From Candidatus Aenigmatarchaeota archaeon (GTDB lineage: Archaea > Aenigmatarchaeota > Aenigmatarchaeia > QMZP01 > QMZT01), in assembly GCA_041489155.1 (NCBI GenBank), contig JBGPQP010000010.1, positions 1 to 43,308 of the forward strand: a stretch of DNA of 43,308 nt, given 5' to 3'. Of this stretch, positions 39,001-42,000 are shown one piece after another. The position numbers were made by a program. Each line of letters begins with the position of its first letter. Positions within the stretch are counted from its first letter, which is position 1.

Positions 39001-42000
39001 TTCTGAGCCGCCGTCCGGTTTCTTATAGTTAAGCTTGTACTGGAGGATGCGGGGTACTTTCCGGAGGAAACAATCGTTCAGGGGTATTTCCACAGCGCCG
39101 TTGACATCATGTAATTTCTTTCTTGTGAGGTTTATTGTGCTCCCATCCGCATCCGCGAAATTTATCGTGAGTTCAGGGATGGTGACATCATCCCTGGTTA
39201 TGAAGCTGATATAAGGCTCTTTTCCCTTGAAAACTATCCTTTCGCCCGCTTCGAAGACGTGCGGGTTGTAAGGCGTGCCGTACTCTCCGCAGAAATCCCT
39301 TATTTCCTTTACCCTGTCTGCGTTGATGTTCTCCGTGGCAGCAGGCGTCTCGCTGCTGAAAAGCCGGCTTGTAAGCTCCTTTTCCCATTGTCCATGGTTT
39401 ACTACAGCTCCCGCTCCTAACGCTGCTGAGGTTTTAAGGAAAGCCCTCCTGTTCATCCCTTTCATTTGTCTCTACCGATTGTTATAAGAAATGTAATTTT
39501 TTTAAACTATTACTGCCCCAGGAATTGCCCAGGGGAGGGCAAACGCCGGAAATAATTTCTTATATCAGGCAACAAATTAATTATATGCACGATTACTTTC
39601 TGCCTTTCGGCCCGCAGCATCCCGCACTCGCCGAGCCGATGCACATAAAACTTCGGGTCGATGGAGAAACCATCGTCGGCTCGGAGCTGGTTCTCGGCTA
39701 CAACCACAAGGGCATCGAGAAATCTTTCGAGGGCAGACCGTGGGCGAAGGGCGTTTATCTCAGCGAGCGCGTGTGCGGCATCTGCCTACCAAAAAACGAG
39801 GAAATAATAACCGATGACGGGAACATAGTCAAAATTGGCGATTACGTCGAAAGACAAATTGGAAATTCGCATGAAAATTTCATATCCCTGGAAGCGAAAG
39901 ACAACTTCAAAGTTTTTTCCCTCAAAAAGTCATGCCTTGTCGAACCCGGAAAAATAACGCATGTCCAAAGGTTCCGTTCCCCTGAAAAACTGCTGGAAAT
40001 CAGGACATGGGCTGGTATAAAAATCAGGGCTACACACGCGCATAAAATACCCATAGACTCCATTTCTGGGCCCGAATACATAAGAGCGGAGCAGCTGAAG
40101 ATTGGCGATATGTTATATTCCGCAAGGCATTTCAGAATAAAAAATGTATGGGTGCCCTTGATAATCGATCTGCTGCCGGAGGAATTTGTAATAAAGCTGG
40201 ATAAAAGCGATCTGGATAAATTTAACAAAAAAATAAGAGACAGATTCGGAACGTTTTCAAACGCCGAAAGGGCTTTGAAAATTTACAGGACCAAACTCGG
40301 CCAAGGCAATCTAAGGAATGGCATCGGGATGGGGGAATTAAAAAGCGTATGCAGGGAAGTGGGAATGAACTATAAGAGATTAAAAAAAGGAATAAAATCG
40401 ATAAGCAACAACAGGAACCATTTTGTTCTGAAAAACGCACACATAGATGAAGATTTAATGTATCTTATGGGCCTCATTGCCTCTGATGGAAGCTTTGGCA
40501 AGATGAGGAATAAAGGACACCGCGATTACAGATTGTCCTTCGTAAACAAAGACAAATCTCTGCTGAAGGAGTTTGAAAAAACCTACAAACGCCTCTTTCC
40601 GCATAAAAAAATTGAAAGGGGAATCCTAAAAAGCGGCGCTGAAATTTTGAGAGTTTCAAATCCCATACTATCAGAGGTTGCGAAATCCCTTGGTTTCAGG
40701 GTTCTTGACAATAAAAAGGAGGACATAAAGCCCATATTCAGGATGCCGGAGAGGCTGATATCATCTTTCATAGGAGGTTATTTCGATGGCGATGGGCACT
40801 GCAAACTGGAAAATAAAAGTGCGAGAATACTGATTTACTCGAAAAGCGAGAAGTTTCTTTCAAGGCTCCAGATGATTCTGAAAAGGCTCGGCGTGGCCAG
40901 CGCTCTGAAGAAAAGGGGCCGCTCGGGATTTAAAAACAACTTTTCTTATGTGCTTTTCATCAACAACGCCGACGACGTTCTGGCATTTTCCTCGAAGGTA
41001 AAAAACAGATTGCCCAGAAAAAGGAACATACTCGATGATATCAAGATTTTCTCGCAAAAATCCAGGAGGTTCCACTCCAAATTTCAGATGTGCCCGTTGT
41101 GGGCAAACAAGTTGTTTGCTGATTTAAGGAAAAGCAGAAACATACCGCTGAACAGATTTCATTGTCCGTCGCATCTGGGTAAAATAGAGAAGGGCAAGAG
41201 GGTAAACAAAAAAACCATGTTATTTTATTTGAAAGATCTGGAAAAAATCATCGGAAAGCGTGACGAGACCGATGAAATAAAAAAGGCTATTTCGCGGGAC
41301 TTTTATCTTGATAAAATAAAAAGCATAAAAGAGATAAATTCATCTTCAAAATTCGTTTATGACCTGACGTTAAATCCGACACATAATTTTATCGTAAATG
41401 GCGGTTTGGTTGTTTCAAACTGCGGCCATTACCACACGTCGTGCTATTGCCAGGGCATCGAGAGCCTCATGGGACTCGAAATCCCCGAACGCGCAGACTA
41501 CATCCGCCTGGTCATAGCCGAGCTGGAAAGGCTGCATTCGCACCTGTTCGGTCTGGGCATCGTTGCGTGGGAAATCGGTCTGGATACGCTTTTCCATTAC
41601 ATCTTCCGCGACCGCGAGCTGGTCATGGACGCGCAGGAGCTGCTGACGGGGAACCGCGTGCATTTCGTGATGAACGTGATTGGCGGCGTCAGAAAGGACT
41701 TCAGCCTCGGGCAGGCGGGAGAGGTTGAAAGGGCGCTCAAGAAGCTGGAGGACAGGCTTGATTATTATCTGGGCATTTTCAGGAACGATGCGTCTGTGAA
41801 AAACAGGCTCAGGCACATAGGCTACCTCTCGAAACCCAAGGCGAAGCACTTCACGCCGGTCGGCCCGAACGTGCGCGCGTCCGGTATAGATTACGACGTC
41901 CGCGAGACCGGCTATTCCGCCTACAAACATCTCAACTTTAAGCCGATCATCGGCCAGGGAGGCGATGCGCTCGAACGCTGTCTCATTCGCTTCAGGGAAT

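What a model noticed while it worked through the whole genome (the two positions that open the first line are those of the whole stretch)
39783..41420. Intein with LAGLIDADG endonuclease splits the Ni-binding CxxC motif of the group-4 [NiFe] hydrogenase large subunit
g00850 (938 aa, Mbh/Ech-type large subunit) carries a 546-aa intein (residues 67-612; Cys1, two LAGLIDADG_3 domains, terminal Asn, Cys+1) inside the motif R-x-C-G-x-C-x3-H: the N-extein ends RVCGI and Cys613 (CGHYH) is the second Ni ligand, so the active site exists only after splicing. Hydrogenases are not described intein hosts.
Evidence so far: Pfam; boundaries calls 53, 61. Of 40 other order genomes 34 have the orthologue, all with residues 1-67 and 613-938 contiguous in 384-430-aa ORFs. 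Among 5.8 billion proteins only 3 other intein-bearing hydrogenase large subunits (68, 59, 43% id). 'intein'+'hydrogenase large subunit': 0 papers.
(Added by a program. Inside this text positions count along the whole contig: contig position 1 is position 1 of the stretch shown here. "Call 12" and the like, gene names such as g00115 and contig names such as C1 are that model's own, and its searches are not shown. The text may have been shortened before it was handed on; [...] marks where a part breaks off. The agent that wrote the report below was given it as the finding of a first reader that could run no searches.)

Follow-up and report, generated by a model that had tools for sequence, protein, structure and literature searches.

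The report
Intein inside hydrogenase nickel-binding motif
A self-splicing, probably still mobile protein insert (an intein carrying its own DNA-cutting enzyme) sits exactly on a metal-binding cysteine of a hydrogenase large subunit in a tiny sediment archaeon; the element is of an ordinary kind, but I found no report of this host protein for inteins.

Summary
Gene 39585..42401 (+) encodes a 938-aa precursor. Residues 67-612 (39783..41420) are a full-length class-1 intein with a LAGLIDADG endonuclease. It lies between ERVCGI and CGHYH of a group-4 [NiFe]-hydrogenase large subunit.

Fourteen intein-free orthologues with the ER.CG.C[GS]..H pattern have the two halves abutting, and 8 of them read ERVCGICGHYH exactly. 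All splicing residues and both endonuclease motifs are kept in 8 of 8 large-subunit inteins. The AlphaFold model (pLDDT 86.8) matches PI-PkoII, TliVMA and PI-PfuI. Contigs from three other sediment metagenomes bridge the junctions, so it is not an assembly artefact.

I find 7 lineages, in 4 of 371 genomes of the phylum. They form one intein clade scattered over the extein tree. Sister inteins sit in the hydrogenase small subunit, PorA, PorB, HdrA-like and CdhC proteins, often at metal-ligand cysteines. This scan had already noted a small-subunit intein in another genome.

- **Caveats:** splicing is untested, and HypD, HypA, HypE and HypF are not found.
- **Literature:** my searches found no published hydrogenase intein.
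- **Verdict:** new member of a known kind, with a testable redox-trap idea (Cys-3/Cys1).

The parts
39585..42401 (+). Precursor gene: 938 codons plus stop, hydrogenase large subunit interrupted by an intein
   Evidence: The start MHDYFLPFGPQHP matches the start of orthologues.
39585..39782 (+). N-extein, residues 1-66, ending R62-V-C64-G-I66 (first Cys of the L1 motif lies at position -3 from the splice site)
   Evidence: R62, C64 and G65 are invariant in alignment A1.
39783..41420 (+). Intein, residues 67-612 (546 aa): Hint splicing domain split around a LAGLIDADG endonuclease
   Evidence: Pfam and NCBIfam. AF2 pLDDT 86.8. Foldseek 2cw7 at 1.2e-23, 7qss, 1dq3. GC 0.403 and GC3 0.485 against 0.574 and 0.740 in the exteins.
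39783..39785 (+). Cys1 codon (TGC), first nucleophile of splicing
   Evidence: C1 is invariant in 9 of 9 and 26 of 26 related inteins.
40032..40043 (+). Block B T-H-A-H (intein T84..H87)
   Evidence: T84 and H87 are invariant in A2. TxxH is present in 26 of 26.
40440..40910 (+). LAGLIDADG endonuclease core (intein about 220-376)
   Evidence: phmmer matches to I-DmoI chains over 220-376. Foldseek I-DmoI TMt about 0.75.
40470..40490 (+). LAGLIDADG motif 1, GLIASDG (intein 230-236), with acidic D235
40776..40796 (+). LAGLIDADG motif 2, GYFDGDG (intein 332-338), with acidic D335 and D337
41355..41420 (+). Blocks F and G: VYDLTLNPTHNFIVNGGLVVSN, ending in Asn546 (AAC 41418-41420). The penultimate residue is Ser, not His.
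41421..42398 (+). C-extein, residues 613-938. It starts with Cys613 (TGC 41421-41423), which is the +1 nucleophile and the second Cys of R-x-C-G-x-C-x3-H.
   Evidence: C613 and H617 are invariant in A1. The motif aligns with ERMCGICSFSH of MbhL (6cfw_L) and DRVCGICGFAH of HycE (7z0s_E) through orthologue P0021.
42285..42311 (+). C-terminal metal-ligand motif DPCFSCTDR (residues 901-909)
   Evidence: It aligns with DPCLSCTDR and DPCYSCTDR of MbhL and HycE.
42312..42398 (+). C-terminal extension of 29 residues after R909, the kind removed by a HycI-type protease
   Evidence: The 6cfw_L chain ends at ...CTDR and HycE continues MTVVDV as here. A HycI-family gene lies at G000:C34:2030-2332. Cleavage itself is inferred.
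42361..43281 (+). Downstream NuoH/MbhM-like membrane subunit gene, overlapping the large-subunit gene by 41 bases. The contig ends at 43308.
   Evidence: Pfam NADHdh 7e-60. Contig limits.

Best explanation
This is a genuine, splice-competent class-1 intein carrying a probably active LAGLIDADG homing endonuclease. It is inserted in the gene for the catalytic (large) subunit of a membrane-bound, Mbh/HycE-type group-4 [NiFe] hydrogenase of a small-genome archaeon.

The 938-aa precursor is translated. The Hint domain, built from the intein's two ends, brings Cys67 and Cys613 together. Four steps follow: an N-S acyl shift at Ile66-Cys67, transfer of the N-extein to Cys613, cyclisation of Asn612, and an S-N shift. 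Together they join Ile66 to Cys613, giving a 392-aa large subunit that reads RVCGICGHYH, plus a free 546-aa endonuclease. Only then can the four-cysteine metal site (C64 and C613, plus C903 and C906 in precursor numbering) be formed and the C-terminal tail be trimmed.

The free endonuclease cuts intein-less alleles at the highly conserved DNA that encodes this motif. Repair copies the intein in (homing), which explains its patchy spread.

Shown here: anatomy, exact boundaries, conserved catalytic residues, fold, empty alleles, presence in independent samples, and monophyly by insertion site. Inferred: splicing itself, endonuclease activity, and the order of maturation.
For: The 17 fetched intein-free orthologue loci have R.CG.C uninterrupted, and 8 read ERVCGICGHYH. 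C1, T84/H87, D235, D335/D337, V525/Y526 and N546 are invariant in 9 related inteins. C1, TxxH, both LAGLIDADG motifs, V[YF]D and the terminal Asn are kept in 8 of 8 large-subunit inteins. The AF2 model has pLDDT 86.8 and pTM 0.89. Its best fold matches are full-length archaeal inteins with endonucleases: 2cw7 at 1.2e-23 (TM 0.65), 7qss, 1dq3 and PI-SceI; I-DmoI matches the endonuclease core. The same insertion site is used in G069, G049 and G340 and in P0002-4, P0022 and P0023. These 8 inteins form one clade (SH-aLRT 98). On the extein tree intein presence needs 5 changes, at least 4 of them forced by well-supported branches. G000 nests among intein-free members of its own genus. The empty site of congener G088 matches the G000 flanks at 56 of 60 bases. 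Intein GC3 is 0.485 against 0.740 in the exteins, and it is lower in all 9 loci examined. Independent metagenome contigs bridge both junctions. For host identity, orthologue P0021 (80% identity) matches MbhL 6cfw_L at 7.4e-80 and HycE 7z0s_E at 4e-78, with both Cys motifs aligned.
Against: No experiment or proteomic or RNA datum shows splicing. The penultimate intein residue is Ser, not the common His; from recall, several active inteins also lack it, and all relatives here have S, K or G. No intein-less contig of this strain was seen (no joints), so ongoing homing is not shown directly. The lower GC3 is seen in every related intein, whatever the host's GC, so it may reflect intein composition rather than recent arrival. 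Function of the host enzyme is uncertain: HypD and HypA were not found, and HypE and HypF scored only below their cut-offs, in this 89.65%-complete genome.
Confidence: 0.85

Rival explanations
1. Conditional (redox- or metal-gated) splicing. In the precursor the extein Cys64 (position -3) and the intein's Cys1 form a C-G-I-C pair. Under oxidising conditions a disulfide, or a bound Ni/Zn ion, would block the first splicing step. The oxygen-sensitive hydrogenase would then be completed only in a reduced cell. On this view the intein is partly domesticated as a switch.
For: The sequence shows Cys at -3 and at 1, and C64 is invariant because it is a metal ligand. Two reviews state that the Pyrococcus abyssi MoaA intein has a native Cys-3/Cys1 disulfide that controls splicing of an oxygen-labile enzyme. 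They also state that an engineered Cys-3 redox trap works, and that Cys1/Cys+1 disulfides and Zn inhibit other inteins (passages read in PMC3922620, and PMC10663303). A related HdrA-like intein sits at D-C-S-I|C, again with Cys at -3.
Against: The Cys at -3 is explained fully by the host motif, so its presence needs no regulatory role. Related inteins in the small subunit, PorA, PorB and AtpB have no Cys at -3. The patchy distribution (4 of 371 genomes) and the retained endonuclease fit a selfish element. Nothing was measured.
Confidence: 0.2
2. Dead insert. The intein no longer splices and the large-subunit gene is a disabled relic in a genome that is losing its hydrogenase.
For: HypD, HypA, HypE and HypF are not detected. 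The penultimate residue is Ser. No expression data were obtained (no RNA holder listed).
Against: The 938-codon frame is intact. The exteins are 79-80% identical to intein-free P0021, with all four Cys ligands and the other invariant residues kept. All splicing and endonuclease residues are conserved across 8 diverged copies, which argues for selection. The same lack of HypD holds for 86 of 91 order genomes, most of which have intact intein-free orthologues, so it is not linked to the intein.
Confidence: 0.07
3. Splicing-competent but immobile. The endonuclease is inactive, and the patchy pattern comes only from vertical descent with repeated precise loss.
For: Within family f1 the intein subclade (G000, P0002, P0003/G069) stays inside the f1 extein clade, which vertical descent with losses can also give. 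No intein-less variant was seen in the same population.
Against: Both LAGLIDADG motifs with their acidic residues are kept in 8 of 8 copies, and the endonuclease core folds confidently. The intein occurs in two orders of the class (G340). Precise loss of an intein is itself usually explained by recombination with empty alleles.
Confidence: 0.25
4. Assembly or binning artefact that joins an intein from another gene to hydrogenase fragments.
For: The genome is a 39-contig metagenome bin and the insert differs in GC.
Against: Contigs from runs of other samples bridge both junctions, two of them without a single difference. Seven other sequences from other sources have an intein at the same codon. 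The reading frame is continuous.
Confidence: 0.01

Closest known systems
PI-PkoII (intein homing endonuclease II, PDB 2cw7), TliVMA/PhoVMA inteins (7qss, 7qst), PI-PfuI (1dq3), PI-SceI (1vde)
   Same: Full-length archaeal or yeast inteins: a Hint splicing domain plus a two-motif LAGLIDADG endonuclease with extra DNA-binding parts. These are the best fold matches (E 1.2e-23 to 3e-10, TM up to 0.65/0.77). The chemistry is class 1, with Cys1 and a terminal Asn.
   Different: Sequence identity is only 12-20%. Their hosts are DNA polymerase, V/A-ATPase and ribonucleotide reductase, not a hydrogenase. The penultimate residue here is Ser.
Pyrococcus abyssi MoaA (radical-SAM) intein with its native Cys-3/Cys1 disulfide
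   Same: An intein in an oxygen-labile metalloenzyme with an extein Cys three residues before the catalytic Cys1 (reviews, passages read). Here the sequence is C64-G-I-C67.
   Different: Redox control is shown for MoaA and untested here. The host, the site and (not compared here) the intein sequences differ. I could not read the primary paper (not held).
PorB (pyruvate:ferredoxin oxidoreductase beta) intein listed for Parvarchaeota in Novikova et al. 2016 (PMC4760082, supplement file 2)
   Same: An intein in an anaerobic energy-metabolism enzyme of a small-genome archaeon. PorB inteins of relatives are sequence relatives of this intein (31-33% identity).
   Different: The host protein and site differ (…V|C…ISN|CYNN/CYDN). 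In that supplement file the word 'hydrogenase' occurs 0 times. File 1 could not be searched.
Hydrogenase small-subunit (NuoB-like) inteins of related archaea (G007, G014, G079, P0087; earlier scan note e1-1464121 on another genome)
   Same: Same enzyme complex and same intein family (30-35% identity). They also sit on a metal-ligand cysteine: …NTGS|C…VVKN|CNGC, where the +1 Cys is the first Cys of the Fe-S CxxC.
   Different: The subunit and the metal centre differ, and they form a separate intein clade (SH-aLRT 95). The small-subunit genes of G000 itself are short frames of 204 and 282 aa without an intein.
hupL interruption in heterocyst-forming cyanobacteria (DNA element excised by site-specific recombination)
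   Same: A hydrogenase large-subunit gene is interrupted by a mobile insert that must be removed before an active enzyme can be made. DNA rearrangement in hupL is mentioned in a passage of PMC4853749; further details are from recall.
   Different: Removal there is at the DNA level, by a recombinase during cell differentiation. Here removal would be at the protein level, by self-splicing.

Membership tests
Intein (class 1, Hint domain) | Nucleophile (Cys/Ser) as first intein residue | tested here: met
   Cys67, TGC at 39783. It is invariant in 26 of 26 relatives.
Intein (class 1, Hint domain) | Block B T-x-x-H | tested here: met
   THAH at intein 84-87. T84 and H87 are invariant.
Intein (class 1, Hint domain) | Terminal Asn, followed by Cys/Ser/Thr at +1 | tested here: met
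   …VVSN612|C613. TIGR01443 intein_Cterm scores 22.1 bits, cut-off 15.6.
Intein (class 1, Hint domain) | Penultimate His (common, not universal) | tested here: not met
   The residue is Ser611. All 26 relatives have S, K or G. That active inteins without this His exist is recalled, not tested.
Intein (class 1, Hint domain) | Precise in-frame insertion relative to intein-free homologues | tested here: met
   In 17 of 17 fetched empty orthologue loci R.CG.C is uninterrupted, and 8 read ERVCGICGHYH. In relatives, query residues 1-67 and 613-938 abut.
Intein (class 1, Hint domain) | Hint fold and family profile match | tested here: met
   PF14890 scores 52.8 bits, cut-off 35.8. TIGR01445 scores 43.5 bits, cut-off 24.5. 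AF2 plus Foldseek match solved inteins.
Intein (class 1, Hint domain) | Protein splicing activity | not testable with these tools
   This needs expression of the precursor or proteomics.
LAGLIDADG homing endonuclease (two-motif, monomeric) | Two LAGLIDADG motifs, each with a catalytic acidic residue | tested here: met
   GLIASDG (230-236) and GYFDGDG (332-338). PF14528 at 1.2e-19 with 2 stretches.
LAGLIDADG homing endonuclease (two-motif, monomeric) | I-DmoI-like alpha-beta-beta-alpha-beta-beta-alpha core fold | tested here: met
   phmmer matches I-DmoI over 220-376. Foldseek I-DmoI chains give TMt 0.70-0.78.
LAGLIDADG homing endonuclease (two-motif, monomeric) | Site-specific cleavage of the intein-less allele | not testable with these tools
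   A candidate target is the G088 site, 56 of 60 bases identical to the G000 flanks.
Group-4 (Mbh/HycE/Ech-type) [NiFe]-hydrogenase large subunit | N-terminal ligand motif R-x-C-G-x-C-x3-H | tested here: met
   The motif is present only across the splice junction: R62-V-C64-G-I66 plus C613-G-H-Y-H617. It is contiguous in orthologues.
Group-4 (Mbh/HycE/Ech-type) [NiFe]-hydrogenase large subunit | C-terminal ligand motif D-P-C-x-x-C-x-x-R/H | tested here: met
   DPCFSCTDR at 901-909, invariant in A1.
Group-4 (Mbh/HycE/Ech-type) [NiFe]-hydrogenase large subunit | Closest solved relatives are group-4 hydrogenases rather than NuoD | tested here: met
   Orthologue P0021 scores 7.4e-80 against 6cfw_L (MbhL) and 4e-78 against 7z0s_E (HycE), but 4.8e-60 against NuoD/Nqo4.
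Group-4 (Mbh/HycE/Ech-type) [NiFe]-hydrogenase large subunit | Partner subunits (NuoB-like small subunit, NuoH-like membrane subunit) | tested here: met
   PF01058 at G000:C1:4286-4618 and C11:22791-23198. The NuoH-like gene lies at 42361-43281. A full operon is not on one contig.
Group-4 (Mbh/HycE/Ech-type) [NiFe]-hydrogenase large subunit | Hyp maturation machinery and end protease in the genome | tested here: inconclusive
   HycI is present and HypC is present. HypD and HypA are absent. HypE and HypF match only far below their cut-offs. The genome is 89.65% complete. HypD is in 5 of 91 order genomes.
Group-4 (Mbh/HycE/Ech-type) [NiFe]-hydrogenase large subunit | H2 production or uptake activity, bound Ni | not testable with these tools
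Redox-trapped (conditional) inteins such as Pab MoaA | Extein Cys at -3 paired with Cys1 | tested here: met
   C64-G-I-C67. The definition comes from review passages.
Redox-trapped (conditional) inteins such as Pab MoaA | The disulfide forms and reversibly blocks splicing | not testable with these tools
   This needs in-vitro splicing with and without oxidant, and a C64S control.

The most novel reading that the evidence does not exclude
The intein works as a built-in safety catch for an oxygen-sensitive metalloenzyme. The precursor's C64-G-I-C67 pair (extein Cys-3 with intein Cys1), possibly together with Cys613, traps the precursor by a disulfide or a bound metal ion. The hydrogenase active-site motif is then stitched together only in a reduced, metal-ready cell. 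Sister inteins on the Cys ligands of the small subunit, HdrA-like and CdhC proteins would make this a wider theme: inteins gating the assembly of metal centres in anaerobic archaea.
Probability: 0.15. Interest if true: 0.75.

Novelty: new member of a known kind. Interest (0 to 1): 0.5.

Why it matters
Inteins are known mostly from replication, repair and nucleotide-metabolism proteins. Here an intein occupies the catalytic subunit of a hydrogenase. Its +1 nucleophile is itself one of the four cysteines that hold the metal centre, so protein splicing has to precede cofactor insertion.

This adds a new host and a new insertion site to the intein catalogue. Together with the sister inteins, it shows one intein family spreading over cysteine-ligand motifs of several anaerobic redox enzymes in small-genome archaea: hydrogenase large and small subunits, PorA, PorB, and HdrA-like and CdhC proteins.

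It also offers a natural test case for redox- or metal-controlled splicing (a native Cys-3/Cys1 pair in an oxygen-sensitive enzyme), and a source of new inteins and meganucleases. For genome annotators, hydrogenase surveys that filter on length or on a contiguous L1 motif will miss such genes.

Tried and rejected
- **Assembly artefact:** rejected, because contigs of other runs bridge both junctions.
- **Intein-less variant of this strain in the reads:** no joints were seen. Contigs drop rare variants, so this says nothing about absence.
- **Expression:** no RNA holder was listed, so there is no evidence either way.
- **Earlier notes near this place or like this sequence:** none.
- **Literature:**
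  - 'intein' plus 'hydrogenase' gave 30 papers. I saw the listing, and read passages of PMC4853749, PMC4465626, PMC3087415 and PMC517821. Their inteins are in DnaB, DnaE, RNR and a phage protein, not in hydrogenases.
  - 'intein' with NiFe, NuoD, Mbh, Ech or ferredoxin oxidoreductase gave nothing relevant in the 25 papers listed of 7,618.
  - The intein survey search and 'intein' plus 'DPANN', 11 papers, gave nothing on hydrogenases in the listings.
  - In Novikova 2016 supplement file 2, 'hydrogenase' and 'NADH' each occur 0 times. File 1 was not searchable.
  - Callahan 2011 (PMC3087850) is not held, so I used two reviews instead.
  - Greening 2024 (PMC11216029, passages) did not bear on [NiFe] maturation in these archaea.
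- **Low GC as proof of recent transfer:** rejected as decisive, because every related intein has lower GC3 than its host gene whatever the host's GC.
- **Antisense ORFs 39842..40228 and 41415..42419:** treated as chance frames opposite a real gene and not followed.
- **Other intein sites in hydrogenase large subunits:** none among the best 150 representatives, but lower-ranked proteins were not listed, so this stays open.
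Full report
**Observation.** The window is the whole contig C10 of a 1.13-Mb, 39-contig, 89.65%-complete genome. Other window genes (CDC48, an RFC-like ATPase, SecY with a Sec61-type plug, a RIO-type kinase) mark it as an archaeon. ORF 39585..42401 (+) gives a 938-aa protein, P0001. The N-terminal 66 residues end ...YLSERVCGI. Residues 67-612 run from CLPKNEEII... to ...HNFIVNGGLVVSN. Residue 613 onward reads CGHYHTSCYCQG.... The coordinates of the finding (39783..41420) are exact.

Pfam reports Complex1_49kDa (9.4e-62), LAGLIDADG_3 (1.2e-19, two stretches) and Intein_splicing (52.8 bits, cut-off 35.8). NCBIfam reports the intein N- and C-terminal splicing regions above their cut-offs, at 67-155 and 590-613. 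GC falls to 0.37-0.46 inside the insert against 0.54-0.59 downstream. GC3 is 0.485 in the intein and 0.740 in the exteins.

**Empty alleles and the exact site.** A six-frame search of the 91 genomes of the order, G000 included, found the orthologue widely. In most genomes query residues 1-67 and 613-938 abut in short frames. By my count of the listed rows, 58 of the 90 other genomes show the C-extein match starting at residue 612-617. In the 17 intein-free loci I fetched, R.CG.C is uninterrupted, and 8 of them read ERVCGICGHYH, exactly the two extein ends joined. The stricter pattern ER.CG.C[GS]..H was found in 14 of them. Two order genomes (G069, 61% identity; G049, 39%) carry an intein at the same codon.

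**Not an artefact.** Contigs of four public sediment-metagenome runs were laid on 38800-42600. X1, possibly the source, spans everything. X4 bridges the N junction (39585-39919) and the C junction (41320-41754) without a difference. X3 bridges the N junction with 17 differences, and X5 bridges the C junction with 23. No contig joins across the intein.

**What the insert is.** An alignment of nine related inteins (A2) has these residues invariant:
- C1;
- T84 and H87 (block B);
- G230, L231, S234, D235 and G236 (first LAGLIDADG motif);
- G332, F334, D335, G336, D337 and G338 (second motif);
- V525 and Y526 (block F);
- N546.

All 8 large-subunit inteins keep C1, TxxH, both LAGLIDADG motifs with acidic residues, V[YF]D and the terminal Asn. 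The penultimate residue is Ser, and S, K or G in all 26 relatives. AlphaFold2 on A2 gives mean pLDDT 86.8 and pTM 0.89. Foldseek places the model with full-length inteins that carry endonucleases:
- 2cw7, E 1.2e-23, TM 0.65/0.66;
- TliVMA 7qss, 1.3e-20;
- PI-PfuI 1dq3, 2.2e-18;
- PI-SceI entries;
- I-DmoI for the endonuclease core (TMt about 0.75).

By sequence alone, the PDB gives only weak intein and I-DmoI matches. This is therefore a canonical class-1 intein with a two-motif LAGLIDADG homing endonuclease.

**What the host is.** The closest intein-free protein, P0021 (80% identity over the C-extein), matches the solved MbhL of Pyrococcus furiosus (6cfw_L, 7.4e-80) and HycE of E. coli formate hydrogenlyase (7z0s_E, 4e-78). 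Both score better than NuoD/Nqo4 (4.8e-60). ERVCGICGHYH aligns with ERMCGICSFSH and DRVCGICGFAH, and DPCFSCTDR with DPCLSCTDR and DPCYSCTDR.

All four cysteine ligands are present (C64, C613, C903, C906), followed by a 29-residue tail after R909. A HycI-family protease gene and a HypC gene exist elsewhere in the genome. Two NuoB-like small-subunit genes are present without an intein, and a NuoH-like gene follows at 42361..43281. The intein thus lies inside R-x-C-G-x-|C-x3-H, with the second cysteine of the motif serving as the +1 splicing nucleophile. From recall, this is the cysteine that bridges Ni and Fe in solved [NiFe] hydrogenases.

**Caveat on the host.** HypD and HypA were not found, and HypE and HypF scored far below their cut-offs, in this incomplete genome. 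HypD is found in only 5 of 91 genomes of the order, and in none of the three that carry the intein. How these archaea build a NiFe(CN)2CO centre, or whether they do, is unexplained. It is not linked to the intein, since intein-free relatives share the gap.

**Distribution and relatives.** The exhaustive HMMER search of 1.84 billion cluster representatives lists three intein-bearing large-subunit representatives among its best 150: P0003, P0022 (937 aa, 38%) and the fragment P0023 (738 aa, 41%). A search of 371 genomes of the phylum at E <= 1e-110 finds the intein-bearing form in 4: G000, G069, G049 and G340, the last in another order.

G069 is close to P0003 and G340 close to P0004, so I count 7 lineages. 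In a tree of 26 related inteins the 8 large-subunit inteins form one clade (SH-aLRT 98), and every other host site forms its own clade. On a tree of the exteins alone (33 rows, 8 with the intein, intein columns dropped, fragment P0023 left out) presence of the intein needs 5 changes, at least 4 of them forced by well-supported branches. G000 sits among intein-free members of its own genus. The empty site of congener G088 matches G000's flanks at 56 of 60 bases. This is the pattern expected from a homing cycle of gain and loss, although vertical descent with repeated loss inside family f1 cannot be excluded.

**Sister inteins.** Inteins 27-37% identical to this one, beginning CLP... or CMP... 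and ending V(V/I)(S/K)N|C, sit in several other proteins:
- the NuoB-like hydrogenase small subunit (G007, G014, G079, P0087; site ...NTGS|C...VVKN|CNGC);
- PorA (G022, P0085);
- PorB (G033 twice; P0011, P0086, P0100, P0129);
- an HdrA-like flavo-iron-sulfur protein (P0062, P0107; site DCSI|C...N|CIEGP);
- CdhC/acetyl-CoA synthase (P0012, P0013 at ...N|CGCFE; P0017, P0018 at ...N|CQSFAP);
- A-type ATPase subunit B;
- Cbf5/TruB, FtsH and MCM.

Several of these +1 cysteines lie in cysteine-ligand motifs. G000 itself has further inteins in a PorB-like gene and in ribonucleotide reductase, plus a free LAGLIDADG ORF.

**Mechanism.** The most likely course is ordinary class-1 splicing (confidence 0.85 that the element is a real, splice-competent intein):
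1. N-S acyl shift at Ile66-Cys67.
2. Trans-thioesterification to Cys613.
3. Cyclisation of Asn612.
4. S-N shift, giving a 392-aa large subunit with RVCGICGHYH and a free 546-aa endonuclease.

Metal insertion and C-terminal trimming must come after splicing, because one ligand cysteine is consumed as the splicing nucleophile and the two ligands of the motif are 546 residues apart in the precursor. This is an inference. Homing by the endonuclease at the conserved DNA of the motif is inferred from the intact motifs, the fold and the patchy distribution; I put it at about 0.6.

A bolder reading is conditional splicing. The precursor has Cys64 at position -3 and Cys67 at position 1 (C-G-I-C). Two reviews state that the P. 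abyssi MoaA intein has a native Cys-3/Cys1 disulfide that controls splicing of that oxygen-labile enzyme, that an engineered Cys-3 trap works, and that Zn or Cys1/Cys+1 disulfides block other inteins (passages read in PMC3922620, and PMC10663303). The primary paper is not held. The -3 cysteine is, however, fully explained by the host motif, so I give this reading 0.15-0.2.

**Comparison with what is known, and novelty.** The element is a member of the intein and LAGLIDADG families by every feature that could be tested, except the non-essential penultimate His. The new things are the host and the site. I found no paper describing an intein in a hydrogenase. This rests on the following:
-, where I saw the listings.
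- Passages of four genome papers.
- The archaeal and bacterial host tables in supplement file 2 of Novikova et al. 2016, which list PorB but give 0 occurrences of 'hydrogenase' or 'NADH'. File 1 could not be searched.
- InBase could not be queried.
- No NCBIfam 'intein-containing' exception model exists for hydrogenases among the matches.

I had found such small-subunit inteins independently. I rate the finding a new member of a known kind: ordinary in mechanism, in an unreported host, on a catalytic metal ligand, and part of an intein family that colonises cysteine-ligand motifs of anaerobic redox enzymes. Interest is 0.5.

Noticed in passing
G000 whole genome; order-wide: The [NiFe] maturation genes are largely missing. 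HypD and HypA were not found, and HypE and HypF scored only below their cut-offs, in G000 (89.65% complete). HypD is in only 5 of 91 genomes of the order. Yet most of these genomes keep a large subunit with all four Cys ligands, and G000 also has HycI and HypC. How the metal centre is made is unexplained.
   Followed up: partly
L024:3547-5658 (G007), L025:5522-7735 minus strand (G014), L026:1618-3804 minus strand (G079); P0087: Related LAGLIDADG inteins (30-35% identity) sit in the NuoB-like hydrogenase small subunit at ...NTGS|C...VVKN|CNGC, that is, on the first Cys of the Fe-S CxxC motif. In G007 and G014 the gene lies in the same Mbh-like operon as an intein-free large subunit.
   Followed up: partly
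P0012, P0013 (site ...N|CGCFE); P0017, P0018 (site ...N|CQSFAP); P0062, P0107 (site DCSI|C...N|CIEGP): Sister inteins sit in CdhC/acetyl-CoA synthase beta subunit and in an HdrA-like FAD/4Fe-4S protein, with the +1 Cys inside cysteine-rich motifs. From recall, C-G-C is the Ni-binding motif of the A cluster. That would be another nickel enzyme split at a ligand.
   Followed up: no
L027:1744-4473 (G022 PorA); L028:637-3174 and L029:488-2920, both minus strand (G033 PorB, two genes); G000:C9 (L035:994-3027, minus strand): Inteins of the same family sit in both subunits of pyruvate/2-oxoacid:ferredoxin oxidoreductase in relatives. G000's own PorB-like gene (677 aa) holds a shorter intein with only a weak LAGLIDADG match, possibly a decaying endonuclease.
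   Followed up: partly
G000:C7 (L036:445-3411, minus strand); G000:C3 (L003:1270-2421): G000 has a ribonucleotide reductase with a LAGLIDADG intein (988 aa) and a free-standing 383-aa ORF with a LAGLIDADG_3 match.
   Followed up: no
G000:C2:65763-65927 (L040): The HypC-family match carries one in-frame TGA inside a 59-aa frame. It could be a broken gene, a sequencing error or a recoded codon.
   Followed up: no
window 37687-39465 (-): A 592-aa protein with a twin-arginine signal and a calcineurin-like phosphoesterase domain lies directly upstream of, and divergent from, the hydrogenase gene. A similar 564-aa frame beginning with a comparable signal-like N-terminus lies next to the orthologue in G088 (L030:8346-10037).
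   Followed up: no
window 42361-42401 and 43281-43308: The large-subunit gene overlaps the NuoH-like gene by 41 bases, and the contig ends 27 bases after that gene. In this family the small-subunit genes lie on other contigs (C1, C11), so the complex appears to be encoded at two or more loci.
   Followed up: partly
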